Virus record (IMG/VR): IMGVR_UViG_3300005512_000043
Span: 1 to 56,401 of that record
Direction: 5' to 3' (one strand)
Source of the DNA: a virus
DNA length: 56,401 bases
Under the pieces are notes generated by a model. That model saw only the letters and a list, made by a program, of their open reading frames with translations, ran no database searches and had not been told where the DNA came from. The number at the start of each line of letters is the position of its first letter. Position 1 is the stretch's first letter. The translations under genes and the position numbers were made by a program. Shown here piece after piece: positions 10,485-49,856 of this stretch.

Positions 10485-10885
10485 TGATAGACGATTCCAT
10501 AGTCGAGTGACTCGGGAATGCGCTTCGCCTCGGGGTGCGGGTCCCAGATCACGCCGACGCCGAGGCGCTCAGTCCTGACGCATACGACCGAATGGAGCAA
10601 GCCTCGTTCTCCCAGCCCGGTTCCGATGAATGACCCGCGGATTGCGCCGAAGCGCTTCGTCGTGATAGGCCAGAGCCCCGTGTGATCGTTCATCCACATC
10701 TGAAACTCGGACCACCAGTCGTCTAAGAGGGCGAAGTTCGGGGTATCCTGGATGTTTACGTCGTGCAGCGAGGCGACACACGCCGCGAGGCAGTTGCCCT
10801 CCTCACCGAACGACGTCTGGTGCACTTTGTGCGGCGGCTCGATCTGTCCGCGCCAGTCAAGTAAGTGAGTCACGCCATGCTCCAT
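10469..10885 (-). CDS. Hypothetical protein, possible papain-fold Cys/His peptidase (138 aa)
   Basis: EGNCLAACVASL resembles the catalytic Cys helix of C39-like/papain-fold peptidases, and a downstream LLHSVV supplies a candidate His. Weak by-eye call. Confidence 0.3.
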   Translation of the reverse strand: MEHGVTHLLDWRGQIEPPHKVHQTSFGEEGNCLAACVASLHDVNIQDTPNFALLDDWWSEFQMWMNDHTGLWPITTKRFGAIRGSFIGTGLGERGLLHSVVCVRTERLGVGVIWDPHPEAKRIPESLDYGIVYQCIIT

Positions 10886-11258
10886 GTAATACGCGACTCT
10901 CGTCGTCGGAGCCGATCGTGTGCTGACGAATAACGACTAGCGGCGCGTGCTTGATCTCTGTGCCGCTCGGAACGACGAACTCGAGGACCTGCCACTGGAT
11001 CAGTAGCTTGATGCACTCGGGACACGGACTGTGCGTCGCATAGAGTACGCATCTCGGTCCCGGCTCTCGCAGCGCGTTGGCCAGGGCGTTCGGAACCGCG
11101 TGCACGAGCAGCGTCTCGTTGAAGTGCGCTGGATGACTCAGGCCGCGTACGTAACCCGTGTAGCCGCACGAGAGAACGCGCTTGTTCTCATCGACGAGAA
11201 CGACGCCGTTCTTGTGCTGAGTCGGCGACCGCTGTGCCACGACCCATGCCATCGCCAT
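10857..11258 (-). CDS. dCMP/cytidine deaminase-fold protein lacking the catalytic Glu (133 aa)
   Basis: GVVLVDENKRVLSCGYTG, then HAVPNAL, then 22 aa to PCPEC. The spacing is identical to the HAE...PCxxC zinc motif of dCMP deaminases, but HAE is HAV here. Confidence 0.65.
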   Translation of the reverse strand: MAMAWVVAQRSPTQHKNGVVLVDENKRVLSCGYTGYVRGLSHPAHFNETLLVHAVPNALANALREPGPRCVLYATHSPCPECIKLLIQWQVLEFVVPSGTEIKHAPLVVIRQHTIGSDDESRVLHGAWRDSLT

Positions 11259-13553: not shown

Positions 13554-14003
13554 TTACTCGTCTTCGGAGATTTCCTCGCCGGCCAGGAGCGAGTCCACGT
13601 CGAAGCCCTGGGCCTCGAGCTTCTTCCGAAGCGTGCCCATCCGCTCCGCCATCCGCTTCAGATTCTTGACGGTGGCCTTCTGGCGCTTGCCGCCAGTCTT
13701 CTTGAGCTCCTCGGCTTCCTCGCGAAGCTTCTTGGCCTTGAGCTCGTGCTCCTCGGCCCGGTGGACGCAGTACTGCACGTCGTCCACGAAGTCCTTCTTC
13801 TTGAGGGCCTTGTGCTTGTCCCAGTCGAAGTCCGCCGGCGTTTCCTTGAACGGATACGTCCCGCCGTCGGTCATGCTCTGGAGCGCCGTCTCGTCGAACT
13901 GCTCGACATAGTCGGCGCGCTTCGCCTTGTTCTCCTCGGGCTTGGTCTCCTCGGGCTTGGTCTCGGGAGCCTTCGCCGACGCTTTCGCTTTGCCTTTCGC
14001 CAT
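13554..14003 (-). CDS. Hypothetical highly charged Lys/Glu-rich protein (149 aa)
   Basis: MAKGKAKASAKAPETKPEETKPEENK... This is the only one of three overlapping frames with a non-degenerate composition. It is the first gene after the 314-bp gap. Confidence 0.65.
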   Translation of the reverse strand: MAKGKAKASAKAPETKPEETKPEENKAKRADYVEQFDETALQSMTDGGTYPFKETPADFDWDKHKALKKKDFVDDVQYCVHRAEEHELKAKKLREEAEELKKTGGKRQKATVKNLKRMAERMGTLRKKLEAQGFDVDSLLAGEEISEDE

Positions 14004-14231
14004 GATCCGATCTCCATGTTCTTGCGGTCACCTACGAGGCGACCTGGTTCTGTCGAGTAAGCTATATCGTAGCACAACCACGGAGTACTGACACCGATCC
14101 TGCTCAACTCGGCGATAAATCTCACGCCGCTGCGGTCGGGGCGACCTCGCGGATGGCCTGTCGAACAGCCGAATCGAACCCAGGTATAAGTTGTTTCATA
14201 CCTTAGACTTATGATGATAGCCTGAAAAGGC

Positions 14232-14261
14232 CTGTTTAAGTCTAGTGTTTACAGGCACTTA
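14232..14261 (-). promoter_or_regulatory. Conserved intergenic motif, copy 1 (candidate phage promoter or regulator site)
   Basis: Minus strand reads TAAGTGCCTGTAAACACTAGACTTAAACAG. Its two halves (19-mer and 12-mer, sharing one base here) recur at 33626-33644 and 33538-33549. An 8-bp inverted partner, TAGACTTA, lies at 14204-14211. Confidence 0.45.
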
Positions 14262-14317
14262 TAAAGCCGCTAGGTTGGCTTCTAAGGCCCTCGATCCGGG
14301 GCCAGGCAATCTATCGA

Positions 14318-14593
14318 CTACGCGACTGGCGTAGCTCCTGGATCATCCTGGTGGTCGGGCTCCGACGATCCACCTGTTCCGAGATCTAGCCGCTCGGCTT
14401 CGGCCATCTCGGTAGTCGATCGGATCAGAGCAGTGAGCTCAAGACCGAGAACGCTGAGCTCTGCGAGGCGATCCTGCAACCACTCGAGTCGCGTGGTCGT
14501 GAGACGCTTCTTGTAGCCCTCACGAGCTCGCTCGAACGCAGTAATCGTGGCTTTATACTGGCTCGTAAGATGACGTAGGCGTACGTCGGTCAC
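14318..14593 (-). CDS. Hypothetical protein (91 aa)
   Basis: ORF track. ATGA-type overlap with the polymerase gene stop. Confidence 0.6.
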   Translation of the reverse strand: MTDVRLRHLTSQYKATITAFERAREGYKKRLTTTRLEWLQDRLAELSVLGLELTALIRSTTEMAEAERLDLGTGGSSEPDHQDDPGATPVA

Positions 14594-16530
14594 AGTAGGC
14601 TCCCTTCATCCCCGGATGCAGTTTTCCAGTCTTGATCCGACCAGCCCGCGGACGTCTTGATCGGCACGCGAAACTCGGCCTGTACGTCCTCGAGCGTTTC
14701 GGTGATCAGCTTGACGGTCTCCGGCGCTCGCGTTACCTCACGATCGCCCACGAAAAGTGTCTCATCGTGAACCGATGCGCAGATGCGAAGACCAAGGGCT
14801 CGTACGTCGGCGTTATACCGCGGTGCCACGGCTACGGTGCGCTCTTTCATCACGTCCGCCGCGCAGCTTTGAATCAGCCGATTAAACGCGATGTGCGCGG
14901 CCTTCTCGATCAGGTGAAGATGACGACCGTACGCGTTCTTGACGTAGCCGCGCTGGCGAATCCTAGAGGCAGCTCGACGAGAGGTCGGTCGCAGGCCGGG
15001 GAGCGCGCCGTGATACGAGTGATACACCTTCGTGGCTCGCTCGAGACACAAGGACGCGAACAGCTGAGCACGCTTACTCGGTTCGACCTCACCGTCTTCG
15101 ATCATGCGATCCATGCGCTCGACGACGTCGGTCATCAGCTCCATGACGCCGGCGAGCATGGACGTGACTCGCGTCTTTCCCGCGCCGTAGCCTATGGCGA
15201 AGTTGACGTTCTTCGCCGGCCGACGTGGAATGCCACACATCTCGGCGACCCACGTGTGGAAGTCGGTGTTCGGGTCATCGTTGTACGCCCTGATCGCCGC
15301 GATGTCCTTGATGTAGTGAACGATGAGTCTGAACTCGATCTGCGAATAGTCACACGACAAGAACGCCTCGCCGGCGTGCGGCAGCACGAGTCGCTTTGCC
15401 TCGGCCGAGAGTTGCTGCGCGTTCGGTCGCTTGCACGACAGCCGCCCCGATCTCACTGCCTGATTGTAGTCGGGGTGCATCACGCCGTCTACCTCATGCT
15501 CGAGATAGGGCTTGATGAAGAACGACAATACAGTATTCGACTTGCGGTAAGTCTGTATGAGCTTAACGACGTGCACGCGTTTGTCGTCCGAGACAACATC
15601 GGGGTGATTCGAGTATTGAACCAGCGAGTCCTTGTCGAACGACGGTTCGCCCTTGTCCGTTCGCGAGAGAACCGGTAGGCCGTAGTGGTTGCACAGCACG
15701 TCGAAGCAGTCGTCGCTGCTCGCCGGATTCGCGGGCGTACCGATGAGACCCTGTAGCTTCTCCTCGATGCGGGCAAGCTTTGCCACGGTCTTGAACTCGA
15801 CGAGCTCAAGCATCTGTCGATCTACGTGTAGCCCCTCACGCTCGATGTCATAGAGAACCGGCGTGAGCTTGATCTCAGTGCCCCAGACTGACTGACACTC
15901 CTCTGGCATACGCCGCTGAACGTACCGGTATAGCTCACGAGTCGTCAGCACATCCTGACAGCCGTAGGCGCACATTACGTCCGCGGGTATGAGCCCGTAG
16001 TCCTGAGCCTTCTTGTTCCGCGACAGCTTGACGCCGGCGAGGAACTGCTTGAGTTCTTTCTCGTAGTCAGAGATGTCATCGTCGAGCCAAGCTGCACTGA
16101 GCTTGTCGAGCCCGTAACCGCCCTTGTAGAGTCGGTCTGAGTCGAGTACCTTCGCGGCTGTGAGAGTGTCGACGAGACGCCCCTGGAACTCAAAGCCCTC
16201 GACCGCGGCAAAGTGCGCGTCGAACTTGACGTTGTGATTGACCCAGTCCTCGCACGTTGTTATCGCGTCTCGAAGCCATCTGAGACCGGCGTCGACGTCG
16301 ATGTTCCATTGTTCATCGCGGTGGCGCAGCGGCACGTAGTACGCGGTCGGGTCATCGTCTCTCGTGGCGCACACGCCGGCGATGCGATGACCCTTGTAGG
16401 GGTTGAGCGCTTTGTCCCCATCAACGAAGCTCGTGGTCTCAAAGTCCACGAATAGCTCACGCGCCTTGCTCATGTCAGGGAGCTCAGATGCTCGCTCGAT
16501 CAATATCTTGTTCGGCGACAGGTTTACCAT
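14590..16530 (-). CDS. Family A DNA polymerase with 3'-5' exonuclease domain (646 aa)
   Basis: Exo motifs are FVDFETTSF (I), NVKFDAHF (II) and YGCQDVLTTRELY (III). Pol motifs are DYSQIEFRL (A), RRPAKNVNFAIGYGAG (B) and SVHDETL (C). Confidence 0.92.
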   Translation of the reverse strand: MVNLSPNKILIERASELPDMSKARELFVDFETTSFVDGDKALNPYKGHRIAGVCATRDDDPTAYYVPLRHRDEQWNIDVDAGLRWLRDAITTCEDWVNHNVKFDAHFAAVEGFEFQGRLVDTLTAAKVLDSDRLYKGGYGLDKLSAAWLDDDISDYEKELKQFLAGVKLSRNKKAQDYGLIPADVMCAYGCQDVLTTRELYRYVQRRMPEECQSVWGTEIKLTPVLYDIEREGLHVDRQMLELVEFKTVAKLARIEEKLQGLIGTPANPASSDDCFDVLCNHYGLPVLSRTDKGEPSFDKDSLVQYSNHPDVVSDDKRVHVVKLIQTYRKSNTVLSFFIKPYLEHEVDGVMHPDYNQAVRSGRLSCKRPNAQQLSAEAKRLVLPHAGEAFLSCDYSQIEFRLIVHYIKDIAAIRAYNDDPNTDFHTWVAEMCGIPRRPAKNVNFAIGYGAGKTRVTSMLAGVMELMTDVVERMDRMIEDGEVEPSKRAQLFASLCLERATKVYHSYHGALPGLRPTSRRAASRIRQRGYVKNAYGRHLHLIEKAAHIAFNRLIQSCAADVMKERTVAVAPRYNADVRALGLRICASVHDETLFVGDREVTRAPETVKLITETLEDVQAEFRVPIKTSAGWSDQDWKTASGDEGSLL

Positions 16531-17114
16531 GGGTTAAACGCCCTGTTGCCTTGCAGCGGATCGGCGAAGATGCATTGTGTGATAGCGACCTGTCGCTCGA
16601 GGTAGCGCTCGACGATGTCCTTCGTGTGGTCCGATGGCCAGCCTGCTTTTCCAACGGGAATGACATAGTCGAAGTCGTAGTCCCACGGATTTGAGTCGAC
16701 AATACGCTTGAACTCACCGTTGACCTTCACAATGCCGTCAAGCGGATACACTTCTTGCCGTGACGTCGGCAGATCAGCGTACTGCAGGCGAATGAACTCG
16801 TCGTCATCTGCTACGCACACGATCGTGAACCCACCGACGAGGCGCAGGGCCGCGTCGAGTATGCGATACTCCTCATCAGTTAGCACGTACTGGTTCTCAA
16901 ACGTGCGACCGTACGCTTGTCTCGACATGTAGAAGCGGTCCATCACCACCATTCGAGTCATAAACGGAAAGTAGTGCGCCGCCCAGTCGAAGCACTCGGG
17001 CAGCTTCGAGAAGTGCTGATAGATATGCGGCATCTCTGCAGCGTTGAGACGCTTGACGAGCTCGTGGCAGAGCGTCGTCTTACCAAGTAGATCGGTGCCC
17101 TCTACTACGATCAT
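16524..17114 (-). CDS. P-loop deoxynucleotide kinase-like protein (196 aa)
   Basis: MIVVEGTDLLGKTTLCHEL is a Walker A of the thymidylate/dNMP kinase type, and DRFYMSRQAY resembles the dNK family DR motif. Start moved to the ATG at 17114, with ATGA overlap to the ThyA-like gene. Confidence 0.7.
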   Translation of the reverse strand: MIVVEGTDLLGKTTLCHELVKRLNAAEMPHIYQHFSKLPECFDWAAHYFPFMTRMVVMDRFYMSRQAYGRTFENQYVLTDEEYRILDAALRLVGGFTIVCVADDDEFIRLQYADLPTSRQEVYPLDGIVKVNGEFKRIVDSNPWDYDFDYVIPVGKAGWPSDHTKDIVERYLERQVAITQCIFADPLQGNRAFNPW

Positions 17115-18106
17115 CTTGAGACCTCCTGTTCTGTTACGTTCCTCAGACTCGGATGCCAAATCCCCTCTACCGCGTATAGGTCGTGCTTGGCGCCGATGAC
17201 GTGTAGCCAGTCCGCGGCCATCGTATTCCGCCCGAGTAAGCGGCACGCGTCAGTCAGCGCGTGCGGATCGCCTTCTCGAATCAACGTTTCTGCTCGGCAG
17301 ACGAGAGTACATATGCGTCGAAGCGACTGCTCACTCGGTACGTACGGGTCATCGACGACTGTGCTCGGGCGCTGAAGAGGCTCGGCGACAGCCTCGACAG
17401 CCGCCTCGACGTTGCGCTGGTACAAGTGCATCGAGCCCGACTGATGTACGTACTCACCTATCTCTACACCTACTGAGTCCGCGATGAGTCGCTGCAGGCA
17501 CGTGAACGCGTACACGTCGTACGGCACGCCGAGCCACGCGTCATTCGAGCGCATCGTGGTGATGAGGTGCAGCTTGTCGTCGAGCAAGAACTGCAGAGAT
17601 AAGGTGCATGGAATGTCTTTCTTGGAGCCATGAAGAGCCCACACGAGATCACCGGCGTTCCACATTGTAACAATGCACTGGCGCGTCTCAGGCTTGCGAC
17701 TGAGCAGCTTGGCTGCGAACTCTAGCTGTGTCGCGTCGCCCACCTCAAGCTCAAGGCCCGATCGTTTGCGCGCGTTACAATAATGAGAGTCGTAGCGCCA
17801 GCGATACCCATAGGCTCCGTGCGCAAGTCCACCCTCGGCGAATTTCTCGTACTGCGGCGCATAGTGAACGATGCGGTCGATACGGCTTTCGCCGCTGAGG
17901 TACCAGATCATCTCTGCGACAGCGTAGGCGGCCGAGAGTTTACGCCTCTCGCACTCGACGACGTTGTCCTGCGGGTTCTGAATGCGAAATTGATAGCCGA
18001 GCATCTCGATCGAGTCACCGGCCCTCGATTCACGGCGCCTGCCGTGAGTCAAGATATCACTGAGCGCGCCCTTCCAAGCGGCCGTCGCGTTCGGATAGGT
18101 ATTCAT
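17111..18106 (-). CDS. Thymidylate synthase-fold pyrimidine hydroxymethylase, dCMP-type candidate (331 aa)
   Basis: ThyA-fold motifs are SAAYAVAEMIWYLSG, the catalytic Cys context KKDIPCTLSLQF, and MRSNDAWLGVPYD, which aligns to E. coli ThyA RSCDVFLGLPFN with Asp in place of Asn177. GAGGAG SD upstream. Confidence 0.8.
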   Translation of the reverse strand: MNTYPNATAAWKGALSDILTHGRRRESRAGDSIEMLGYQFRIQNPQDNVVECERRKLSAAYAVAEMIWYLSGESRIDRIVHYAPQYEKFAEGGLAHGAYGYRWRYDSHYCNARKRSGLELEVGDATQLEFAAKLLSRKPETRQCIVTMWNAGDLVWALHGSKKDIPCTLSLQFLLDDKLHLITTMRSNDAWLGVPYDVYAFTCLQRLIADSVGVEIGEYVHQSGSMHLYQRNVEAAVEAVAEPLQRPSTVVDDPYVPSEQSLRRICTLVCRAETLIREGDPHALTDACRLLGRNTMAADWLHVIGAKHDLYAVEGIWHPSLRNVTEQEVSR

Positions 18107-19262
18107 CGGGGCTCCTCTTGCTTAGTCTTGGTGGTGCGTATTTCGTAACGTTCATGGTCTTCTCGAGCGGTTCATCTTTGAGCCACGTACCTACCCATCG
18201 TCGTTTGCGCGCGTCATACGAGGTCTCCCAATCGTCTGTGCCCCACTCATCCTTGAGGCACTTGATGACCTGTCGCGCGATCCAGTCGCCGATAATCGGT
18301 ACGACTCCTTTTCCGATCTGACCGATGGGGTGGTCGCCCTTGGGCAACATGTCAGGCGGCCAGCCCATGAGTCTCGCCACCTCGCGTACAGTGAGACAGC
18401 GATCCTCCCACGGATGAACGTATCGGATAGCGCTCGAGCTGATGACAGGGCACGCGACCTCAGGCGCCAGGCGAAACGGTGAGTGCAACGAGAAGGGCAG
18501 CTTCGACGTTCGTCGCATCCACTTGCGTGCATAACGATCTGGCATCTCGTCGAGGCACCAGTCTGCGAACTTGTTGAAGTCGAAGCTCTGTGGAAGTCGT
18601 CGAATGATCTCCATCTCCGTGGGTGACCGTCGATGCCAACAATCAGCGTCATAGTCGAGCGAGTGCAAGTTCGCCGGCCGCGTTTTATACTGCTCGAACT
18701 CAGGCGTACAAATAACGTCCGCGACAGTCGTACGTCTTTCGACGAGCGGCGGCGCGCTCAGGTTGAAGCGCTTGCCGCGCGGATAGGCGACGAAGAAGTA
18801 TCGCTTGCGATCCTGCGCGTTACCGAATGACGCCGCATTGAGAAAGACGTGAGCTACGCGGTAGCCGTTAGGTCGACAGTACTTTTCGACGAGATAGTCG
18901 AGCAGTGGTCGGCCCACGGTGTAAGCTTGCTGTACTGACTCCCAGCAGAGCACGGGAACACCGTGCTCCGTGCCGTACGCCATGAATTGATGAATGTCGA
19001 TGGTCTGATGGCTCCACGGACCGTGACCCTTTTCGCAACCACCGGATAGACACGAGAAGCCCGTACATCGGGGATTCCCGAACAGCAATGCGGTGCCTGT
19101 CGGAGGTTCGGGCCACTCATCTGCGTCACAGCAGACAAAGTGATTCACGGGCGCCGTATCGACGCCGAGACCGTGAACCTCGAGTTGCATGTCGCAGGGC
19201 ATCGCGCTCTGCACGCCTGCGGTAAAACCACCGGCGAACACGTGACATCCGAGTGCTTTCAT
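18057..19262 (-). CDS. DNA cytosine-C5 methyltransferase family protein (401 aa)
   Basis: Motifs appear in order: HVFAGGFTAG (I), FGNPRCTGFS (IV, with RC instead of PC), CWESV (VI), FGNAQDRKRYFFV (VIII), REVARLMGWPPDM (IX), GKGVVPIIG (X). Confidence 0.8.
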   Translation of the reverse strand: MKALGCHVFAGGFTAGVQSAMPCDMQLEVHGLGVDTAPVNHFVCCDADEWPEPPTGTALLFGNPRCTGFSCLSGGCEKGHGPWSHQTIDIHQFMAYGTEHGVPVLCWESVQQAYTVGRPLLDYLVEKYCRPNGYRVAHVFLNAASFGNAQDRKRYFFVAYPRGKRFNLSAPPLVERRTTVADVICTPEFEQYKTRPANLHSLDYDADCWHRRSPTEMEIIRRLPQSFDFNKFADWCLDEMPDRYARKWMRRTSKLPFSLHSPFRLAPEVACPVISSSAIRYVHPWEDRCLTVREVARLMGWPPDMLPKGDHPIGQIGKGVVPIIGDWIARQVIKCLKDEWGTDDWETSYDARKRRWVGTWLKDEPLEKTMNVTKYAPPRLSKRSPDEYLSERDGRLEGRAQ

Positions 19263-19552
19263 CGAGGAGTCCTTCGTTTCTCTAGGGGCTTAAAGCGAAT
19301 AGCAAGAGGCCCGTCGAAGGCCAGTATGGCTCTGCGATTGCGAAAGCCTTTCATCGTCAACGCGTACTCGACGCGGTTGAGATCGCGGGTCACCGTCTCT
19401 CCGACTCGGAGAACGACCTCTTCGCGCGTCAGTGAGAGCCACAGTACGACGCTTCGGTTCGCGAGGTCTTCCCTGAGTCTGAGAACTCGAACGATGCAAT
19501 AGGGGCGCTCAGTCTCAGCGCCTACTATCAGCGTTCGGTCGTTTACGCCCAT
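19259..19552 (-). CDS. Hypothetical protein (97 aa)
   Basis: Start moved to the ATG at 19552 (MGVNDRTLIVG...). Its stop overlaps the methyltransferase start (ATGA). Confidence 0.5.
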   Translation of the reverse strand: MGVNDRTLIVGAETERPYCIVRVLRLREDLANRSVVLWLSLTREEVVLRVGETVTRDLNRVEYALTMKGFRNRRAILAFDGPLAIRFKPLEKRRTPR

Positions 19553-20066
19553 CTCTCTGATCCACACGATGCTTCTCCAAGATGCGACCGAGAGTAGGCG
19601 GCTCGTAGCTATCGCCCTTATTGCGACAGCGCATGTCCTTGTCACCGCCAGCGCCCACGGCCTTTGTCATGTTGCTCCGCTGCACCTCCGCGAACGCCTC
19701 ATGGAGTGGCAGATCGAACGCGACGCCGCTGCCGTACGTAACATAGAGCAGATCGGTCAGCGCGTCGAGAACCTCGACCTCGTCCTCCTCGGCCATAGCG
19801 AGAAGGAGCTCGCTCACCTCCTCGACGATCAGATGCGCGCGCATGAGTCGAGGGTCGTGCGTCTCGCCGGGATGGTTGTCGATCGTACGATTGGTCGTGC
19901 CATTCTCCCAGAGCTGCGAGATCGCGTAAAGTGTCCTCGAGGCCATGATGAGCTCGGCCTGAACTGCCTCGAGATAGCCGATCGTTAGCCGCGGGTCGAT
20001 CATCTCGACGCCTACATCGAACCCGTGCTTGCGGTGAAACTGTTCTACCTGTTCTTGTTCGTTCAC
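19515..20066 (-). CDS. MazG-like nucleoside triphosphate pyrophosphohydrolase (183 aa)
   Basis: LIVEEVSELLLAMAEEDEVEVLDALTDLLYVTYG is the MazG EExxE...D helix pair. The GTG start at 20066 overlaps the radical SAM stop (GTGA). The upstream part of the 297-aa track ORF is a shadow. Confidence 0.75.
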   Translation of the reverse strand: MNEQEQVEQFHRKHGFDVGVEMIDPRLTIGYLEAVQAELIMASRTLYAISQLWENGTTNRTIDNHPGETHDPRLMRAHLIVEEVSELLLAMAEEDEVEVLDALTDLLYVTYGSGVAFDLPLHEAFAEVQRSNMTKAVGAGGDKDMRCRNKGDSYEPPTLGRILEKHRVDQRDGRKRPNADSRR

Positions 20067-21061
20067 GGGATGACTCCTGTAAAGGCTCGTTTGTCTCCGG
20101 CTTCGTACGCACGAAGCTTCTCCTCCCACCCTACTGCAACCTCGTTCGGCACACGAATCTTTCGATGAACGTGCATGAACGCGTGCTTGTGATTGCACGT
20201 GTCGCACTCCGGCAGCACGCGTCGCTTGCTTTGCAGGAAGTACCGATAGATCGCGTACACCTTGCTGTTCCAGATCGAATGAAGAGACTGATCGTTCGCG
20301 TCGCCGGCGTACACCGAATCGTCGTCTGTCGCGTCGACGACACAGCAGATCGGCACAAGGCCATCGTATCGCACGACAAGATGACGCATCGGTCGCGCGC
20401 AGAACCATCGATGCGCGAGGCGGGTTTTTCGATCCTCGGTTGAGCGATTATTTACGCTCGCTGTTACTGAGCACGTGTCGCGCTCGAGTCGCATATCGGT
20501 AATCGTGATGAGTCGCTTCTTCGGACTATGCTTTCGGTACTTGCCCGCGTAACTCGTCTCCTCAGCTACACCCGCGGCTACAACCGCGTCCATGAACTTC
20601 TCGGTCGTGAGCAGCCTGTCTTCTCCGCGGTCATACACGTTGAGATTCACTACGTTCAAACCGCGAGTGTAGAGTGCGTTGAGTCGCGCGATCGCCTTGT
20701 CTTCGTCGAGGGCCAACAACACGTCGGCGTTCGTCGAGGTATAAAGCGTCACTCGAGGCAAGAACGCTCGAGCTGTCTCGATGAACCACGCGTACTCCGG
20801 GTTGATAAGCGGCTCGTCGAGGAGGAACATCTCGATAACGCCTGCGAAACCTAGTGTCTTCAACTCATCGCAGATCGTCGTGAACAGAGGCTTTCGCATG
20901 ACGACGTCGCCCTCGCGGCGTCCGTGATACTGCGGGCAGAAGCGACATCGTCGATTGCACCGTGAGTGCGTCTCGATGTTCATCCGCGTCCACAGCGGAT
21001 AGCTCTCCGTCCAGTCGAGCGGAGGCGCGCTCGGCAACTGCATGAATCCGTATTTCGCCAC
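20063..21061 (-). CDS. Radical SAM protein with a SPASM/twitch-like C-terminal Cys cluster (332 aa)
   Basis: Contains the CNRRCRFC (CxxxCxxC) cluster. The C-terminus has CARPMRHLVVRYDGLVPICC...LPECDTCNHK. The GTG start shares one base with the primase stop; an ATG at 21043 is the alternative. Confidence 0.8.
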   Translation of the reverse strand: MAKYGFMQLPSAPPLDWTESYPLWTRMNIETHSRCNRRCRFCPQYHGRREGDVVMRKPLFTTICDELKTLGFAGVIEMFLLDEPLINPEYAWFIETARAFLPRVTLYTSTNADVLLALDEDKAIARLNALYTRGLNVVNLNVYDRGEDRLLTTEKFMDAVVAAGVAEETSYAGKYRKHSPKKRLITITDMRLERDTCSVTASVNNRSTEDRKTRLAHRWFCARPMRHLVVRYDGLVPICCVVDATDDDSVYAGDANDQSLHSIWNSKVYAIYRYFLQSKRRVLPECDTCNHKHAFMHVHRKIRVPNEVAVGWEEKLRAYEAGDKRAFTGVIP

Positions 21062-23964
21062 TAGAAGTCCTCCTCGTCGGGATCACCGAGGTGCTTTGGT
21101 CTCACGATCTCCGGGTCACCCTGGGCCCGCTTGAGTAACTCAATGAACTCAGGCGTCTTTCGATACGATCGATCGTCGCGTACGAGCGCGTGCTTACGCA
21201 CGAAGAAACTCAGGAGCTCGAGCGCCTCACCCCGCTCCCAGCCGCACCAATCGCATAGGTCTCTGAGGTCGATCTCTGTCGCGTGCAGCATGTGAGCCAC
21301 GAAGTCCTGCGGGAACGGCAGAGCCGCGAGCTTCGATCTCAGTTTGTCGGGATCGAGCAGCGTGCGGGCGCTCCTGTAAGCGTCGCTAAACGCGAGATAG
21401 CCGCAGGTGGCGTTGCCGTACGCACGCTCGAGAAACTGAACGATATACTCGACGTGACACGGACGCACGACGATTACCCGGCGCGTCGGACCACACGAAA
21501 ACGTACGAGCCGCGAGCGCGGCCGACAGCCGAGCGAGCTTGTGTCGCATCGAGCCTCGATCGACGATCGGGATCGTCTCGTTATAGCGCTCGCAGAGTCG
21601 TGAGGCGGCCGACAGCGTCGCTTCCGTCGCCGCTTCTGTGAACTCTATCTCTTCTGTCTTGCGTGACCACGCCCACAGCACGCATCGCCGACAGAGCTTG
21701 CTCGTGAACGTTCGCTTTATCTTCGGGCGCATTCGCGTCAGCTTATTGAGCTCAGACGCCGATATGTCTCCCGCCGCTACGACGAGGCACGCGTCAAAAC
21801 GCCGCACGTCCTCCGGTGATCCGATGAGCTCTCGCACTGCATCGACGCCATAATTGTACGACGCGAGCGGCTGGTTGCTTCGAGGATTCGAGAGAGCTAC
21901 GAGGCGAGTGCGTGCTGTCGTGCGGCGCTTCTCAATCTTATCGAGCTCAGCGATGCCGGAGCTGCGCATGTCAGTGAGCTTGCTGATAGTCTCGTGGTTC
22001 GCGCCCTTGAGTTCCTCGAGGATCACCAGGCGTCGATCATTGAGCGGTATCTTTCCCCATGTCACGAACCACCGTCCGCCGAGCTGCTGTAAGCCGCCGA
22101 GTAGACCGGCTACACTGGCGTTCTTCGACTCCACCTTCTCACCTAGGCCGTAGTGTCGCTGGAGACCGATCGTAGTCTCAGACTTGCCCTGCGCTGAGTC
22201 ACCGACAATGAGCACTTCTGCCCAGCCCTTGACTGATCGATGATCGAAGTTCAAGATCAACGGCGAGTGGTATGCGAGATCGACGATGAGGTGCATGTCT
22301 CGTCGCTTGAAGATGCGCGTGACGTTGGCCTCTAGATCGTCGTAGATCGCATCGAGCTGGCGTGTCAGACCACCGAGCGTCCACTCTGTCGGCTGAAAAA
22401 GCGTGAGCTCCTCAAGCTCAGCGTCGGACGGCTCATAGAGACCGAGCGCGTCTCGCTCCGGCTGCCACTTAGACGCGAGGAACAAGGCGCGTTGTGACCG
22501 AGGATGCGGGTACACTCGCCCCTCGAAGCGATACAGCGTATTCCCCTCGATGCCATGCGATATAGCGAGCGTAGGAAGAAGACGCTCATCCACGCGATTC
22601 GCCTCAACGTCGAGGTCCGGAGCGAGACGCAGGTCCTCCACGTTATAGTGCGACTTGACAGTGAACTGAACGGTCTTACACGCGGGGATCTTGAGACCGT
22701 CCCGCAGAGCTTCCCGCTGCGCATCGAGACCCGCGTTCACCATCGAGACGATCGCCGGCGATTCGCACGGTACCTCGAGAGCAGTGAGGCCTGTCTTCTC
22801 ATCGGCTGGTGCCGCGAAGACTGGACAGAGTGCACAGAGCGGCTGATCGCGTTCACACTCGCAGTCCACGAGCTTGGGCACCAGGTAAGGATTGCTGTCG
22901 ATCGCAGTGACAAGGGCCGACACGCTAATTCGCTTCCCGGCGTGTTCTGCCTTGGTCACGTCGTTGATCTCTACGCTCGTGGCGGTCTCGTTGTCATCAA
23001 GAGTCTTGATCTTGAGTTCCCAAGGAGGCGCAGCCTCGATGAGACTCATGAGATCATCGCCCGTCGCACCAATCGCGGGGCCCAAGTAATCGTTGAGGTC
23101 TCCCGTGGGAAAATGCTCTGGATCGAGGGGCAGCTCAAGGATCGCGACGCGTTGAGCAACAGCCTTAAGCTGAGCCGCGAGCAACTCGGCCGCTCGGCGT
23201 CCCGGCTCGTCGACGTCCATGCATACCCAAATGCGCTTATCTGCGAACAGTGGCGTAAATGCAGATGACCACTTGCCTTCGCCGGCAGTCGCCGTGATAG
23301 CACCGACTTCGTGCGCGTTGAGAACGGAGGCCGCTACGATGGCCTTGATTTCCCCGCCGCACACCACGATGTCTTCATACTTGAGTTGATCGACGGGGTA
23401 GAGACGAATCTTCCCGCGACCTCGCATGTTGCGAACCTTGTCGCTCCCGGGAGCGCCGGGCATGTACTTGCGAACGTTGATGACTTGCCCCGACTCATTG
23501 TACACGGGGATCATCACGCGACCCGCGTTACACCCGAGTCGTCGTTCTCGCATAATCGCAGGTGTTACACCGCGTTTCTTGAGCTCTCGCAGCAGCGGCT
23601 TGGCCGTCTTAAGCGCGCCGTGCCATTGCTCGATCGTGCGTGACGAGACAGTTTTTTCAGCGCCCCCGAGTTCGTAGCGAGTAGAGAGATCAGCGAGAAC
23701 GGCAGACCTCGTCGTCTTGAGCACGACCGCGATGAACGAGACGATGTCACCGCTCCAGCCGCAGCTCGCGACGTGACAACCACCGACTCGCTTTTCAATG
23801 TTGAACGACAGTGAGGCGTGCTCGTCGCCATGGGTGGGTGAGGGGCAGCGACACTTGACCTCGTCATCGCCCACAAAAGCAAAGTCCCAGCCAAGCCGCT
23901 CGAGTTCAGCTGTCACGCTGATGTTTGAGAGTACTTCCGTGCGTCCCATGCACCCGCTCGCCAT
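21061..23964 (-). CDS. DNA primase (DnaG-type Zn finger plus TOPRIM) fused to an MCM-like AAA+ helicase (967 aa)
   Basis: The zinc finger is CRCPSPTHGDEHASLSFN...CHVASCGWSGD. TOPRIM is VVCGGEIKAIV...VCMDVDEPGRRAA. The AAA+ part reads LIVGDSAQGKSETT (Walker A), SVAGLLGG, RRLVILEELKG (Walker B), SSGIAELDKIEKRRTTARTRLVALSNP, RRFD, colinear with MCM motifs (GDPgtaKSq, savGLTA, IDEFDKM, isiaKAGi..L.aR.sVLAAaNP, SRFD). Confidence 0.8.
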   Translation of the reverse strand: MASGCMGRTEVLSNISVTAELERLGWDFAFVGDDEVKCRCPSPTHGDEHASLSFNIEKRVGGCHVASCGWSGDIVSFIAVVLKTTRSAVLADLSTRYELGGAEKTVSSRTIEQWHGALKTAKPLLRELKKRGVTPAIMRERRLGCNAGRVMIPVYNESGQVINVRKYMPGAPGSDKVRNMRGRGKIRLYPVDQLKYEDIVVCGGEIKAIVAASVLNAHEVGAITATAGEGKWSSAFTPLFADKRIWVCMDVDEPGRRAAELLAAQLKAVAQRVAILELPLDPEHFPTGDLNDYLGPAIGATGDDLMSLIEAAPPWELKIKTLDDNETATSVEINDVTKAEHAGKRISVSALVTAIDSNPYLVPKLVDCECERDQPLCALCPVFAAPADEKTGLTALEVPCESPAIVSMVNAGLDAQREALRDGLKIPACKTVQFTVKSHYNVEDLRLAPDLDVEANRVDERLLPTLAISHGIEGNTLYRFEGRVYPHPRSQRALFLASKWQPERDALGLYEPSDAELEELTLFQPTEWTLGGLTRQLDAIYDDLEANVTRIFKRRDMHLIVDLAYHSPLILNFDHRSVKGWAEVLIVGDSAQGKSETTIGLQRHYGLGEKVESKNASVAGLLGGLQQLGGRWFVTWGKIPLNDRRLVILEELKGANHETISKLTDMRSSGIAELDKIEKRRTTARTRLVALSNPRSNQPLASYNYGVDAVRELIGSPEDVRRFDACLVVAAGDISASELNKLTRMRPKIKRTFTSKLCRRCVLWAWSRKTEEIEFTEAATEATLSAASRLCERYNETIPIVDRGSMRHKLARLSAALAARTFSCGPTRRVIVVRPCHVEYIVQFLERAYGNATCGYLAFSDAYRSARTLLDPDKLRSKLAALPFPQDFVAHMLHATEIDLRDLCDWCGWERGEALELLSFFVRKHALVRDDRSYRKTPEFIELLKRAQGDPEIVRPKHLGDPDEEDF

Positions 23965-24008
23965 AAGATAAGAGCGACTCGCCCCTTTCGGTTTGAGTCG
24001 CCGCGTGT

Positions 24009-24839
24009 TCAGAACTCACCGGACTCCGGTGTCTCGGCCTCGTCCTCGGGCGTTTCGTCGGCGTCACCGTGAGCGACGCGAATACGACCGTCCTGGAAGA
24101 CCTTCGAGACCTCATCGAACTGCTCCTTGAGTGCCTCAAACTCTTCCTCTCCCACCCAAGGTGTGACACCCTCGACCGTCGGGTTCGTGACGTCGAGCCC
24201 GAACCACGAGCCCTTGTTGTTCTTCCTCGGCTCGGTGCCGACCTGCGCCTGGAACACGCAGGCGTAGATCGGGGCCTTGCGAGCCTTGATGAGACTCGCG
24301 AGGCGAGTACCGCTGCGGTGCTCACCGCGAGCGAACGACATGATCATCGGCTCACCAGCGAGTGGGTGGTTGTAGAGCGTGACCATGAAGTTCAAGTGCT
24401 GAACGTGCCGCACCTGGATCATTCGTCCCTCGTATTCTACATCCTCGTAGCGAGTGTCGGGGTTCGCGGACTTCACCGCGATTACGCCGTTGCGATCGTG
24501 ACTCCGACCGATGATTGCCGGCACCTGCCCGCGGAGCTCCTGCGGAGTCCACGTGCACCACTCCGGGAAGAAGAAGATAGGGACAAACAAGAACGGGTTG
24601 GGCCCGTCCTCGTGCGGCGCGATGAGCGACCGCGTGGGGAGAACGATGACGTCGCCGGCCTCGAAAGTCGACGTGATGTCATCGCTCGACTGCTTCTGAA
24701 CCACCTTCAGTATCGGCGGTTCAACGAACTGCGCCAGATCCTCGAGGCCTTGAACCTCTTGGCCGCCGAGGAAGTCCGGCAGTTTCATCTCAGGTTGCAC
24801 GTGCACGATGTCCGTGCTCGCGTCTTTCTTCTTTGCCAT
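24009..24839 (-). CDS. Hypothetical protein, possible ssDNA-binding protein with an acidic tail ending in Phe (276 aa)
   Basis: The C-terminus HGDADETPEDEAETPESGEF resembles the acidic, aromatic-terminated tails of phage SSBs such as T7 gp2.5. It lies between the helicase genes, with AGGAGA SD upstream. The fold is not verifiable by eye. Confidence 0.35.
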   Translation of the reverse strand: MAKKKDASTDIVHVQPEMKLPDFLGGQEVQGLEDLAQFVEPPILKVVQKQSSDDITSTFEAGDVIVLPTRSLIAPHEDGPNPFLFVPIFFFPEWCTWTPQELRGQVPAIIGRSHDRNGVIAVKSANPDTRYEDVEYEGRMIQVRHVQHLNFMVTLYNHPLAGEPMIMSFARGEHRSGTRLASLIKARKAPIYACVFQAQVGTEPRKNNKGSWFGLDVTNPTVEGVTPWVGEEEFEALKEQFDEVSKVFQDGRIRVAHGDADETPEDEAETPESGEF

Positions 24840-49669: not shown

Positions 49670-49856
49670 AGCGAATACCTCCATCGCCCTCTACGGGCTT
49701 GTCGTGCGGATTATCCCCATACGCGATGTCGTTGGGTATGCCGTCCGGAAACGCATCGCAGGTGACGCGCTCGGTATCTTCCCGGTCTTGATCCTGCTTC
49801 ACGCCGCGAAAATGAACACACCGTCGTGCGAAGCACTTGGGTTCTTCTATGCTCAT
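49653..49856 (-). CDS. Hypothetical protein (67 aa)
   Basis: ATGA overlap with the stop of the MuF-like gene. Confidence 0.5.
   Translation of the reverse strand: MSIEEPKCFARRCVHFRGVKQDQDREDTERVTCDAFPDGIPNDIAYGDNPHDKPVEGDGGIRYERAG

What the first reader, a model, noticed from the sequence alone, without database searches (positions are those of the whole stretch)
16524..20066. T4-style hydroxymethyl-dC supply module (dCMP-type ThyA homologue, kinase, MazG) next to the DNA polymerase
Gene 17111-18106 has the thymidylate synthase fold, including the catalytic Cys context (KKDIPCTLSLQF). E. coli ThyA has Asn177, which reads the uracil face, in RSCDVFLGLPFN. This protein has Asp at the colinear position (RSNDAWLGVPYD). 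That is the substitution known from T4 gp42 dCMP hydroxymethylase (Asp179).

The gene is ATGA-coupled to a P-loop dNMP-kinase-like gene (16524-17114) and lies directly upstream of the family A polymerase. A MazG-type NTP pyrophosphohydrolase (19515-20066) lies 1.4 kb away.

This reproduces the logic of T4 gp42, gp1 and gp56: make hm-dCMP, phosphorylate it, and remove the canonical dNTP. Here it occurs in a phage with an RcGTA-like siphovirus tail rather than in a T-even myovirus.
Basis: partly seen in the sequence, partly recalled or inferred. Interest (0 to 1): 0.7.

Follow-up and report, generated by a model that had tools for sequence, protein, structure and literature searches.

The report
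Phage hydroxymethyl-cytosine nucleotide supply module
An uncultured tailed phage carries a gene set that most likely replaces the cytosine in its DNA with 5-hydroxymethylcytosine before replication; this kind of module is already known from environmental viromes, and the one new element is an odd methyltransferase-like gene inside it.

Summary
Gene 17111-18106 (- strand) is a thymidylate-synthase-fold enzyme with Asp where E. coli ThyA has Asn177. It is ATGA-coupled to a thymidylate-kinase-like P-loop kinase (16524-17114), lies just upstream of the family A polymerase, and a MazG/PRA-PH pyrophosphohydrolase lies at 19515-20066.

The residues that separate product types match the hydroxymethylases T4 gp42 and MilA: D143, T147, M165, N168, D169, D177. 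They do not match the 5-methyl-dCMP synthases of Xp12 and PaMx74 (N143, P147, L165, S168, with a DHFR gene beside them). They also do not match the RB69 5-hydroxy-dCMP synthase (D169N). Asp177 and Asp169 are invariant in 120 metagenomic homologues, and Asp143 is present in 118.

The closest relatives place an HMUDK-domain kinase and a TET-associated glycosyltransferase next to the same enzyme. Both act on a hydroxymethyl group.

The kinase and MazG are functional analogues of T4 gp1 and gp56, not orthologues.

This architecture (Asp177 TS, PRA-PH, dCMP deaminase, PolA) has been published as the leading marker of cytosine-modified virome DNA, so this is a new member of a known kind.

It has Lys at the position that selects carboxy-SAM in CmoX. 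That gene is the real open question.

The parts
17111..18106 (-). Thymidylate-synthase-fold enzyme, predicted dCMP 5-hydroxymethylase (5hm-dCMP synthase)
   Evidence: Pfam PF00303 E 3.5e-32. The best solved relative is MilA CMP hydroxymethylase, 5jnh, E 1.4e-25. Active-site residues in E. coli numbering are C146, E58, Y94, D143, T147, M165, S167, N168, D169 and D177, the same as T4 gp42. NCBIfam thymidylate-synthase equivalog models all score far below their cutoffs.
16524..17114 (-). Thymidylate-kinase-like P-loop nucleotide kinase, predicted to convert 5hm-dCMP to 5hm-dCDP
   Evidence: ATGA overlap with the ThyA-like stop. P-loop EGTDLLGKTT and the DRF..S..AY motif are invariant in 14 homologues. 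The AlphaFold model has pLDDT 89. Foldseek top hits are YorR (2axp/3kb2, E 1.6e-5) followed by many thymidylate kinases. Weak similarity to the RB69 gp45 nucleotide kinase beside its TS homologue. Present in 56 of 84 related loci.
19515..20066 (-). MazG/PRA-PH all-alpha NTP pyrophosphohydrolase, predicted to remove the canonical dCTP and/or dUTP
   Evidence: PF01503 E 9e-17, phrog_671. PDB hit DR2231 MazG-like dUTPase, E 2e-5. Homologous to the PaMx74 gp53 pyrophosphohydrolase, which sits beside that phage's dCMP methylase. No similarity to T4 gp56. Present in 57 of 84 related loci.
18057..19262 (-). DNA cytosine-C5 methyltransferase-fold enzyme of an atypical subfamily, function unresolved
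   Evidence: PF00145 E 4e-12. The AlphaFold model has pLDDT 93, and the Foldseek top hit is M.HaeIII at 6e-16, with CmoX 8yf3 at 1e-12. Invariant in the family: NPRC instead of PPC, ESV instead of ENV, and Lys318 at the M.HhaI N304 / SpCmoX R350 position. It lies directly upstream of the TS gene in 35 of 85 loci. It never occurs together with the HMUDK-like or TAGT genes.
20063..21061 (-). Radical-SAM/SPASM enzyme (BtrN-like), an accessory gene in a variable slot
   Evidence: PF13186 SPASM E 3e-11 and Radical_SAM. BtrN 4m7t E 1.9e-12. Translationally coupled to the primase stop and the MazG start. Found in only 1 of 84 related loci. The same slot holds ThyX in L007, L017 and L021 and is empty in L008 and L009.
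10857..11258 (-). dCMP-deaminase-family enzyme (the T4 cd analogue); in relatives it lies between the kinase and PolA
   Evidence: PF00383 E 9.5e-14. Similar to the PaMx74 cd, E 4e-10. In L007, L008 and L009 the deaminase follows the kinase directly.
14590..16530 (-). Family A DNA polymerase with 3'-5' exonuclease, the enzyme that would incorporate 5hm-dCTP
   Evidence: PF00476 E 1.4e-41, PF01612, phrog_17 E 1.6e-89. Its start overlaps the kinase stop.
21061..23964 (-). Primase/helicase heading the operon (context)
   Evidence: Toprim and MCM-like hits, phrog_18685 and phrog_47. Syntenic in 53 of 84 related loci.

Best explanation
This is a pre-replicative modified-cytosine supply module embedded in the replication operon of an uncultured siphovirus.

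Shown:
- The gene order, on the - strand, is primase, radical-SAM enzyme, MazG, C5-MTase-like enzyme, TS-fold enzyme, TMK-like kinase, PolA.
- The genes are tightly coupled.
- The TS-fold enzyme has the complete active-site signature of a cytosine-specific, deoxyribose-specific hydroxymethylase.

Inferred mechanism:
1. The enzyme attacks C6 of dCMP with its catalytic Cys (residue 167 of the protein, equivalent to E. coli Cys146).
2. It takes the one-carbon unit from methylene-THF.
3. An Asp three residues upstream of the Cys activates water, which hydrates the exocyclic methylene instead of a hydride reducing it. The product is 5hm-dCMP plus THF.
4. The coupled TMK-like kinase makes 5hm-dCDP, and host NDK makes the triphosphate.
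5. MazG hydrolyses the competing canonical dNTP (dCTP and/or dUTP).
6. The dCMP deaminase feeds dUMP to the host thymidylate synthase.
7. The phage PolA incorporates 5hm-dC.

The C5-MTase-like enzyme probably adds a second layer of cytosine modification on DNA. The radical-SAM enzyme may contribute too, but its chemistry is unknown.
For: - Fold and catalytic residues.
- Discriminating residues: D177, D143, T147, M165, N168 and D169 are identical to T4 gp42, and at all six positions MilA has the same residues. The 5mC enzymes of Xp12 and PaMx74 have N143, P147, L165 and S168, and RB69 has N169.
- Asp177 and Asp169 are invariant in 120 of 120 homologues, and D143 is present in 118 of 120.
- Mechanistic grounding from the literature: Asp145 of T4 dCH activates the substrate water and D145N makes no 5hm-dCMP (PMC6400193); N177D switches the enzyme to dCMP (PMC8670742, PMC13326640); Ser167 and Arg126 select deoxyribose (PMC5175136).
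- No DHFR, ThyX or second ThyA is present in the window, whereas Xp12 and PaMx74 have a DHFR gene next to their methylase. A hydroxymethylase releases THF and needs no DHFR.
- In the closest IMG/VR relatives (TS 43-49% identical) the TS gene is followed by an HMUDK_hel-domain protein (PF18723, 8e-39) and a TET-associated glycosyltransferase (PF20691). Both families act on a 5-hydroxymethyl group. Those loci keep the TMK-like kinase and MazG beside PolA.
- The module is conserved across related loci: kinase in 56 of 84, MazG in 57 of 84, PolA in 68 of 84.
- The same TMK/YorR-like kinase type sits beside the TS homologues of RB69, DLP3 and RL38JI.
- The same Pfam set (PF00303 with Asp177 and a non-His residue at 147, PF01503, PF00383, PF14743, DNA_pol_A) was found experimentally enriched in cytosine-modified virome DNA.
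Against: - No biochemistry or virion DNA exists for this lineage, and no cultured relative was found.
- Overall sequence similarity to the Xp12 5m-dCMP synthase is higher (81 bits) than to T4 gp42 (38.5 bits). The product call therefore rests on a few active-site positions.
- The Ser94 signature of T4 dCH is not present. The family has HGAYG, as does the dUMP hydroxymethylase of ZC01.
- The specificities of MazG and the kinase are unknown. The nearest solved MazG relative is a dUTPase.
- A conserved DNA C5-transferase fits poorly with complete replacement of C, because C5 would already be occupied.
- In the NEB preprint, five of the seven deaminase-linked Asp177 TS homologues that were tested made 5m-dCMP.
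Confidence: 0.7

Rival explanations
1. The TS-fold enzyme is a dCMP methylase (5m-dCMP synthase), as in Xanthomonas phage Xp12 and Pseudomonas phage PaMx74. The phage would replace C with 5-methylcytosine, and the deaminase would make dTTP or dTMP from the methylated nucleotide.
For: - Asp177 alone does not separate methylases from hydroxymethylases.
- Overall similarity to the Xp12 enzyme is 81 bits, 28% identity over 220 aa, higher than to T4 gp42.
- The NTP-PPase, TS, deaminase arrangement is the same in PaMx74 and Xp12, and MazG is homologous to PaMx74 gp53.
- Five of the seven deaminase-linked Asp177 TS homologues that were tested made 5m-dCMP.
Against: - At the four positions where Xp12 and PaMx74 differ from T4 gp42 and MilA (143, 147, 165, 168), the window and its family carry the hydroxymethylase residues.
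- T4 dCH D145N, which is the Xp12-type residue, cannot make 5hm-dCMP.
- There is no DHFR in the window, whereas both 5mC phages encode one beside the TS gene.
- The closest relatives link the TS gene to the HMUDK-like and TAGT enzymes, which need a hydroxyl group.
Confidence: 0.12
2. 5hm-dC is only a handle. The adjacent C5-MTase-fold enzyme (Arg65 and Lys318 variant), possibly with the radical-SAM enzyme, converts hydroxymethylcytosine or residual cytosine in DNA into a further modified base, so the virion base is not plain 5hmC. This extends the best explanation and is compatible with it.
For: - The MTase-like gene overlaps the TS gene. All 29 loci found by scanning for the MTase-like family also carry the TS gene.
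- The MTase-like gene is mutually exclusive with the HMUDK-like/TAGT pair, which occupies the equivalent place beside the TS gene in sister lineages: 35 loci against 13, none with both.
- Lys318 aligns with R350 of CmoX, which binds the carboxymethyl group, and with engineered M.MpeI N374K.
- It has a DNA-MTase fold with a target-recognition domain.
Against: - No CmoA homologue is present in the window or in any related locus.
- The CmoX defining motifs SPPC and R350 are not met.
- The association lies within one phage lineage, so it may reflect shared ancestry rather than function.
- It could be an ordinary sequence-specific methylase acting on residual C.
- The radical-SAM gene is present in only 2 of about 90 phages.
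Confidence: 0.3
3. The enzyme is a 5-hydroxy-dCMP synthase (flavin- and O2-dependent, RB69 gp48/DLP3 gp80 type) that feeds glycosylated 5-hydroxycytosine.
For: It shares N177D and an acidic residue at position 143 with those enzymes, and a TMK-like kinase sits next to them too.
Against: The diagnostic D169N substitution is absent. Asp169 is kept in the window and in 120 of 120 homologues. No glycosyltransferase or NDP-sugar genes were detected in the window.
Confidence: 0.03
4. The enzyme is an ordinary thymidylate synthase or a dUMP hydroxymethylase, and the kinase is a plain dTMP kinase, so this would be routine nucleotide metabolism.
For: Automated annotation calls the family thymidylate synthase. 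The kinase's only family hits are dTMP kinase models.
Against: Asn177 is replaced by Asp in every family member. All NCBIfam thymidylate-synthase equivalog models score 22-94 bits against cutoffs of 108-576. Some relatives carry a separate ThyX for dTMP synthesis.
Confidence: 0.03

Closest known systems
T4 gp42 dCMP hydroxymethylase with gp1 dNMP kinase, gp56 dCTPase/dUTPase and cd dCMP deaminase
   Same: [quoted passage not shown]
   Different: - The window enzyme is only about 22% identical to gp42 over the aligned columns; BLASTP aligns just 77 residues, at 38.5 bits.
- It has a 90-aa C-terminal extension.
- It lacks the Ser94 signature.
- The kinase is TMK/YorR-like rather than gp1-like.
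- MazG is PRA-PH-type and has no detectable similarity to gp56.
- No glucosyltransferase is present.
- The virion is a siphovirus and the polymerase is family A.
Asp177 thymidylate-synthase neighbourhoods of cytosine-modified virome contigs (MetaGPA, Yang et al. eLife 2021, PMC8670742; mSCD deaminase preprint 10.1101/2024.12.05.627091)
   Same: The domain set is identical: PF00303 with Asp177 and a non-His residue at 147, PF01503 PRA-PH, PF00383 and MafB19 deaminase, DNA_pol_A with its exonuclease, and ligase PF14743.
   Different: Those studies did not describe the TMK-like kinase or the C5-MTase-like partner; searches of the eLife 2021 text for both found nothing. The partners they characterised were carbamoyltransferases and 5mC-selective deaminases. 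Many of the TS homologues they tested made 5m-dCMP.
MilA CMP 5-hydroxymethylase (mildiomycin pathway, PDB 5jnh/5b6d)
   Same: It is the closest solved structure by sequence (E 1.4e-25). It has the same D143, T147, M165, N168, D169 and D177, and it also has a C-terminal extension.
   Different: MilA has Ala176 and Lys133, which favour ribo-CMP. The window enzyme has Ser and Arg, as the deoxy-specific enzymes do. MilA serves antibiotic synthesis, not DNA.
Xp12 / PaMx74 5-methyl-dCMP synthase module (NTP-PPase, TS, dCMP deaminase, DHFR)
   Same: These are siphoviruses of similar genome size with the same gene neighbourhood. MazG is homologous to PaMx74 gp53, and both TS enzymes carry Asp177.
   Different: Their TS has N143, P147, L165 and S168 and an adjacent DHFR gene. 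The window has D, T, M and N at those positions and no DHFR.
CmoX DNA cytosine C5-carboxymethyltransferase (Synechococcus phage S-B43, PDB 8yf3) and engineered M.MpeI N374K
   Same: For the 18057-19262 gene: a DNA C5-MTase fold with a cationic residue replacing the motif X Asn. Lys318 aligns with R350.
   Different: The residue is Lys, not Arg. The motif is NPRC, not SPPC. No CmoA or CmoY is nearby. The gene is linked instead to a dCMP hydroxymethylase.

Membership tests
dCMP hydroxymethylase (5hm-dCMP synthase) branch of the thymidylate synthase superfamily | Thymidylate synthase fold with the catalytic Cys, Glu58, Tyr94 and the phosphate-binding Arg residues | tested here: met
   PF00303 E 3.5e-32. 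C146, E58, Y94, R21, R126 and R166 are conserved.
dCMP hydroxymethylase (5hm-dCMP synthase) branch of the thymidylate synthase superfamily | Asp at E. coli Asn177 (T4 Asp179), giving cytosine specificity | tested here: met
   Asp in the window and in 120 of 120 homologues.
dCMP hydroxymethylase (5hm-dCMP synthase) branch of the thymidylate synthase superfamily | Acidic residue three positions upstream of the catalytic Cys (T4 Asp145, E. coli Leu143) that activates the substrate water | tested here: met
   KKDIPC has D at position 143, and 118 of 120 homologues have D. The criterion comes from PMC6400193 and PMC13326640.
dCMP hydroxymethylase (5hm-dCMP synthase) branch of the thymidylate synthase superfamily | Ser/Thr equivalent to T4 Ser94, which partners Asp145 | tested here: not met
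   The window and its family have AHGAYG (Gly/Ala). MilA has T-A-Y-G. The dUMP hydroxymethylase homologue of ZC01 also has HGAYG, so this feature is not universal among hydroxymethylases.
dCMP hydroxymethylase (5hm-dCMP synthase) branch of the thymidylate synthase superfamily | Deoxyribose-type residues Ser167 and Arg126' (rather than Ala and Lys as in MilA) | tested here: met
   S187 and R142 in the window. The criterion comes from PMC5175136.
dCMP hydroxymethylase (5hm-dCMP synthase) branch of the thymidylate synthase superfamily | Catalytic production of 5hm-dCMP and THF from dCMP and methylene-THF | not testable with these tools
   Needs recombinant enzyme or an in vivo LC-MS assay.
5-methyl-dCMP synthase (Xp12/PaMx74 type) | Asp177 together with a non-acidic residue at 143 (Asn), Pro147, Leu165 and Ser168, with a DHFR gene in cis | tested here: not met
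   The window has D143, T147, M165 and N168. tblastn with the PaMx74 and Xp12 DHFRs finds nothing.
5-hydroxy-dCMP synthase (RB69 gp48 type) | Asn at E. coli Asp169 (D169N) | tested here: not met
   Asp169 is retained in the window and in 120 of 120 homologues; RB69 has Asn.
T4 gp1 dNMP kinase family | Sequence or fold similarity to gp1 (PDB 1DEK/1DEL) | tested here: not met
   The Foldseek top 50 are YorR and thymidylate kinases, with no gp1 entry. The kinase may work like gp1 but is not a member of its family.
Thymidylate kinase-like NMP kinases | P-loop ExxDGxGK(S/T)T, a DR(Y/F/H) motif, and the NMP-kinase fold | tested here: met
   EGTDLLGKTT and MDRFYMSRQAY are invariant in the family. Model pLDDT is 89, with TMK hits at E 1e-4 to 1e-3 and YorR at 1.6e-5. 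The Pfam score of 23 bits is below the 27-bit cutoff, so this is a divergent member.
5-hmdU DNA kinase (5-HMUDK) | HMUDK helical domain (PF18723) and an amino-acid:DNA transferase partner | tested here: not met
   No PF18723 or AADT hit in the window. hhalign against M6 gp54 gives probability 61% over the P-loop region only. Relatives that do have an HMUDK-domain gene keep this TMK-like kinase as a separate gene.
MazG / PRA-PH all-alpha NTP pyrophosphohydrolases | PRA-PH domain with the acidic metal-binding helices | tested here: met
   PF01503 scores 61.7 bits against a cutoff of 21.3. DR2231 alignment. Similarity to T4 gp56 was tested and not found. Substrate specificity was not testable.
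CmoX DNA cytosine C5-carboxymethyltransferase | SPPC catalytic motif, Arg350 contacting the carboxymethyl group, and CmoA in the neighbourhood | tested here: not met
   The window has NPRC. Lys, not Arg, sits at the R350 position. No CmoA homologue in the window or in about 120 related loci. It resembles CmoX in having a cationic residue at that site, but it is not a member by the published definition.
Canonical DNA (cytosine-5) methyltransferases | Motifs I (FxGxG), IV (PC), VI (ENV), VIII (QxRxR), IX and X (GN), and the MTase fold | tested here: inconclusive
   The fold and motifs IV-Cys, VI-Glu, VIII and IX are present. However, FAGGF, PRC, ESV and GKG deviate invariantly across the aligned family: they hold in the consensus of 120 homologues and are invariant in the 43-sequence alignment.

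The most novel reading that the evidence does not exclude
The conserved C5-methyltransferase-fold enzyme that overlaps the hydroxymethylase gene is a new kind of DNA cytosine-C5 transferase. It has an invariant Arg before the catalytic Cys, and an invariant Lys at the site that binds the carboxymethyl group in CmoX.

It could be a Lys-type carboxymethyl (or other anionic SAM analogue) transferase that relies on host Cx-SAM. Alternatively, it could be an enzyme that uses covalent C6 catalysis to derivatise 5-hydroxymethylcytosine already in the DNA. In that case it would fill the same slot as the HMUDK-like and TAGT pair of sister phages, and the virion base would be an undescribed cytosine hypermodification.
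Probability: 0.25. Interest if true: 0.75.

Novelty: new member of a known kind. Interest (0 to 1): 0.42.

Why it matters
If the prediction holds, this phage and a large uncultured lineage use non-orthologous parts to achieve T4-style replacement of cytosine. The lineage comprises 389 Asp177-type TS hits in IMG/VR, on contigs of roughly 45-75 kb that share a primase, PolA and SNF2 replication module. That bears on resistance to restriction and CRISPR, on how such DNA behaves in sequencing and metagenomic surveys, and on enzyme mining for 5hmC tools.

For the core module, the practical value is mainly a cleaner residue rule separating 5hm, 5m and 5ho products: positions 143, 147, 165, 168 and 169.

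The more valuable lead is that the same TS family is paired with one of two alternative partners and never with both. One partner is the HMUDK-like and TAGT enzymes. The other is an atypical C5-MTase-like enzyme with a CmoX-like cationic substitution. This points to an uncharacterised second-layer cytosine modification.

Tried and rejected
- Nucleotide search of 14000-24000 against 50,697 phage records found no match, so there is no cultured close relative.
- tblastn of the kinase, the MTase-like gene and the radical-SAM gene against phage records found only MW202657/MW202864 (kinase), two cyanophage methylases at 26% identity, and Campylobacter phage BtrN-like genes at 24% identity. None was informative about function.
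- The single-protein scan of viral contigs found only two fragments. The alignment-based scan was needed.
- The kinase is not similar to ZC01_015, the 196-aa gene downstream of the ZC01 TS homologue.
- The radical-SAM protein is not similar to the M6 gp53 radical-SAM isomerase.
- I looked for DHFR, ThyX, a second ThyA, T4 beta-glucosyltransferase and CmoA in the window and found none.
- Pfam and PHROG scans of about 48 window ORFs found no glycosyltransferase, carbamoyltransferase, AADT or HMUDK domain. ORFs under 110 aa were mostly not scanned.
- The promoter and terminator scan of 14000-24500 gave counts no higher than shuffled controls, so the operon structure rests on gene overlaps alone.
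- The genome-contig scan did not identify a host. Only one mis-binned MAG contig carries the module.
- I considered the kinase as a DNA-base kinase and rejected that as the main reading.

Full report
**1. Observation**

All genes of the window lie on the - strand. The operon around the finding runs in this order:
- primase/helicase, 21061-23964
- radical-SAM/SPASM protein, 20063-21061
- MazG, 19515-20066
- C5-methyltransferase-like protein, 18057-19262
- thymidylate-synthase-like protein, 17111-18106
- P-loop kinase, 16524-17114
- family A polymerase, 14590-16530

Family assignments come from Pfam and PHROGs. The junctions were read directly:
- The kinase ATG overlaps the TS-like TGA (ATGA).
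- The kinase stop overlaps the PolA ATG.
- The MazG GTG overlaps the radical-SAM TGA.
- The radical-SAM GTG overlaps the primase TAG.
- The methyltransferase-like gene overlaps the TS-like start by 50 nt.

The quoted peptides are present, and in alignments the last Asp of RSNDAWLGVPYD is colinear with E. coli Asn177. The structural half of the window is an RcGTA-like siphovirus: Phage-tail_3 with Rcc01698_C, DUF2460, Gp84_N/BR0599, tail tube, P22-type coat and portal. The one omission is the 401-aa gene that fills the '1.4 kb' between the TS-like gene and MazG.

**2. What the TS-like enzyme is**

Its closest solved relative is MilA, a CMP 5-hydroxymethylase (E 1.4e-25), ahead of all true thymidylate synthases. 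NCBIfam thymidylate-synthase equivalog models all score far below their cutoffs.

I collected enzymes whose products are known, or are inferred from the phage's known DNA base:

| Enzyme | Product |
|---|---|
| E. coli ThyA | dTMP |
| T4 gp42 | 5hm-dCMP |
| MilA | 5hm-CMP |
| RB69 gp48 | 5ho-dCMP |
| Xp12 and PaMx74 TS | 5m-dCMP |
| ZC01 (homologue from a phage family related to M6 and PaMx11) | 5hm-dUMP (as annotated) |

They were aligned with the window protein and 120 metagenomic homologues.

The literature gives mechanistic meaning to several positions:
- Asn177 to Asp switches the enzyme from dUMP to dCMP (PMC8670742, PMC13326640).
- The residue three positions before the catalytic Cys is Leu in methylating enzymes. 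In T4 dCH it is Asp145, which activates the water that hydrates the exocyclic methylene, and D145N makes no 5hm-dCMP (PMC6400193).
- Asp169 to Asn marks the flavin-dependent 5-hydroxy-dCMP synthases (PMC13326640).
- Ser167 and Arg126 favour deoxyribose, against Ala and Lys in MilA (PMC5175136).

The window enzyme has D143, T147, M165, S167, N168, D169 and D177, and R at position 126. This is identical to T4 gp42 at every one of these positions. The 5mC enzymes have N143, P147, L165 and S168, and RB69 has N169. Across the 120 homologues, D177 and D169 are invariant and D143 is present in 118.

One published dCH signature, Ser94, is not met. The same HGAYG motif occurs in the ZC01 dUMP hydroxymethylase homologue, so I give this little weight.

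Overall similarity is higher to the Xp12 methylase (81 bits) than to gp42 (38.5 bits). The product call therefore rests on active-site residues and genomic context, not on clade membership.

**3. Context evidence**

The window has no DHFR, ThyX or second ThyA. Both 5mC phages encode a DHFR immediately beside their TS gene. A methylase oxidises the folate to DHF; a hydroxymethylase does not (PMC6400193).

An alignment-based scan of IMG/VR found 389 relatives, of which 80 loci were fetched. With the loci, that gives 84 loci. Of these, 56 keep the TMK-like kinase, 57 keep MazG and 68 keep PolA, usually in the same order as in the window.

In the relatives most similar in TS sequence (43-49% identity), the TS gene is followed directly by an HMUDK_hel-domain protein (PF18723, E 8e-39) and then a TET-associated glycosyltransferase (PF20691). 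Both families act on a 5-hydroxymethyl group: HMUDK according to PMC8989533, TAGT from my own knowledge and its Pfam name. Those loci still keep the separate TMK-like kinase and MazG beside PolA. This supports two points: the product is a hydroxymethyl nucleotide, and the TMK-like kinase is a nucleotide kinase rather than a DNA-base kinase.

Some relatives carry ThyX in the slot where the window has the radical-SAM gene, and a dCMP deaminase between the kinase and PolA. That completes the T4-like set. In the window the deaminase lies at 10857-11258.

**4. The kinase and MazG**

The kinase has the thymidylate-kinase P-loop and DRF..S..AY motifs, invariant in its 14 homologues. A confident model (pLDDT 89) matches YorR and then thymidylate kinases; T4 gp1 is not among the top 50 hits. 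It is weakly similar to RB69 gp45. RB69 gp45, DLP3 gp78 and RL38JI gp214 are TMK/YorR-like 'nucleotide kinases' sitting beside cytosine-type TS homologues. Profile comparison with the M6 5-hmdU DNA kinase matches only the P-loop region.

MazG belongs to PRA-PH. Its nearest solved relative is the DR2231 dUTPase. It is homologous to PaMx74 gp53 and shows no similarity to T4 gp56.

Both proteins therefore work like gp1 and gp56 by inference, but they are not members of those families. Their substrates are untested.

**5. Comparison with what is known**

The neighbourhood of an Asp177, non-His147 TS with PRA-PH, dCMP and MafB19 deaminases, DNA_pol_A and ligase OB_2 is what MetaGPA found most strongly associated with cytosine-modified DNA in viromes. 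A follow-up found a TS gene within 3 kb of 70% of the deaminases on modified contigs. It also showed that several such TS homologues make 5m-dCMP. Xp12 and PaMx74 are siphoviruses with the sister 5mC module.

So cytosine replacement outside T-even myoviruses is established. This window is a new member of that kind, and no cultured relative exists.

**6. What the T4 analogy does not explain**

*(a) The methyltransferase-like gene.* It has a DNA C5-MTase fold (pLDDT 93; M.HaeIII at 6e-16). It keeps the catalytic Cys, the motif VI Glu and QxRxR. Its family nevertheless carries invariant deviations, seen in the consensus of 120 homologues and invariant in the 43-sequence alignment: NPRC instead of PPC, ESV instead of ENV, and GKG instead of GN.

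The Lys aligns with R350 of the natural carboxymethyltransferase CmoX and with the engineered M.MpeI N374K. In both, a cationic side chain binds the carboxylate of Cx-SAM. By the published CmoX definition (SPPC and R350) it is not a member, and no CmoA was found in the window or in any related locus.

A scan seeded on the MTase-like family returned 29 loci, and all of them carry the TS gene. Across 85 loci the MTase-like gene (35 loci) and the HMUDK-like gene (13 loci, 11 of them also with TAGT) never co-occur. I read the MTase-like enzyme as an alternative second-layer cytosine-modifying enzyme of unknown chemistry. Shared ancestry within one lineage could also produce this pattern. An ordinary methylase acting on residual C is not excluded either.

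*(b) The radical-SAM/SPASM protein.* It resembles the dehydrogenase BtrN (E 1.9e-12) but occurs in only about 2 of 90 related phages. I treat it as an accessory gene of unknown role.

**7. Verdict**

The best explanation is a pre-replicative 5hm-dC supply module (confidence 0.7). The main rival is a 5m-dCMP synthase module (0.12). The 5ho-dCMP and ordinary thymidylate synthase readings are largely excluded by residues 169 and 177.

The finding is correct but not new in kind, so interest is moderate (0.42). The atypical methyltransferase-like partner is the part worth experimental follow-up.

Noticed in passing
window 18057-19262 (-): A C5-methyltransferase-fold gene overlaps the TS-like gene. 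Its family has invariant NPRC, ESV and GKG motifs. Lys318 sits at the position of CmoX R350 and M.MpeI N374K, which selects carboxy-SAM. No CmoA is present nearby. The family has no member among cultured phages.
   Followed up: partly
window 20063-21061 (-): A BtrN-like radical-SAM/SPASM gene is translationally coupled between the primase and MazG. It sits in a slot that holds ThyX in L007, L017 and L021 and is empty in L008 and L009. It is almost unique to this phage within the lineage (one other case, L023/L094, downstream of PolA).
   Followed up: partly
L012-L016, L018-L020, L022, L030, L035 (e.g. L014:10974-13196): In sister phages the same Asp177 TS family is followed by an HMUDK_hel-domain protein (with an HNH_3 hit) and a TET-associated glycosyltransferase. 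This suggests phosphorylation and/or glycosylation of 5hmC in DNA. The pair is mutually exclusive with the MTase-like gene: 13 loci against 35, none with both.
   Followed up: partly
L129:7887-9873 (Ottowia beijingensis chromosome) and L072: Asp177-type TS homologues (29-37% identical) occur on chromosomal contigs of Burkholderiales and actinomycetes. In Ottowia, one lies 2 kb from a tyrosine integrase and is followed directly by an aGPT-Pplase3/AADT amino-acid:DNA transferase (PF18746, 2.7e-81). That family is known from thymidine hypermodification but here sits beside a cytosine-type enzyme.
   Followed up: partly
window 7947-8594 (-): This ORF has a weak nucleoside 2-deoxyribosyltransferase-like domain (PF05014, E 6.6e-6, below the cutoff). 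It also shows faint similarity to the MilB CMP N-glycosidase (4jen, E 0.18), which is the partner of MilA in mildiomycin synthesis. The gene start is uncertain.
   Followed up: partly
window 49853-53158 (-): A 1101-aa protein combines a Mu-F-like head morphogenesis domain with an ADP-ribosyltransferase exoenzyme domain (PF03496, E 9e-7). It is probably an ejected virion-borne toxin or effector.
   Followed up: no
window 9092-9670 (-): A stand-alone 192-aa TSCPD-domain protein resembles the C-terminal part of class II (B12-dependent) ribonucleotide reductases (NF005122, E 4.5e-21). No reductase catalytic domain was detected in the window.
   Followed up: no
window 16524-19262: The kinase and the MTase-like protein each have a 100% identical counterpart (P0121 and P0135), both with 5,703 bp as the longest contig in JGI metagenome data. 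This phage, or a near-identical one, has therefore been sampled before as a fragment.
   Followed up: no
L006 (Pseudoxanthomonas phage PW916) 3280-4098: The gene is annotated as deoxyuridylate hydroxymethyltransferase, but it carries Asp177, D143, T147, M165 and S168. It is therefore more likely a cytosine-specific enzyme, and the annotation is probably wrong. It is flanked by an NTP-PPase and a dCMP deaminase.
   Followed up: no
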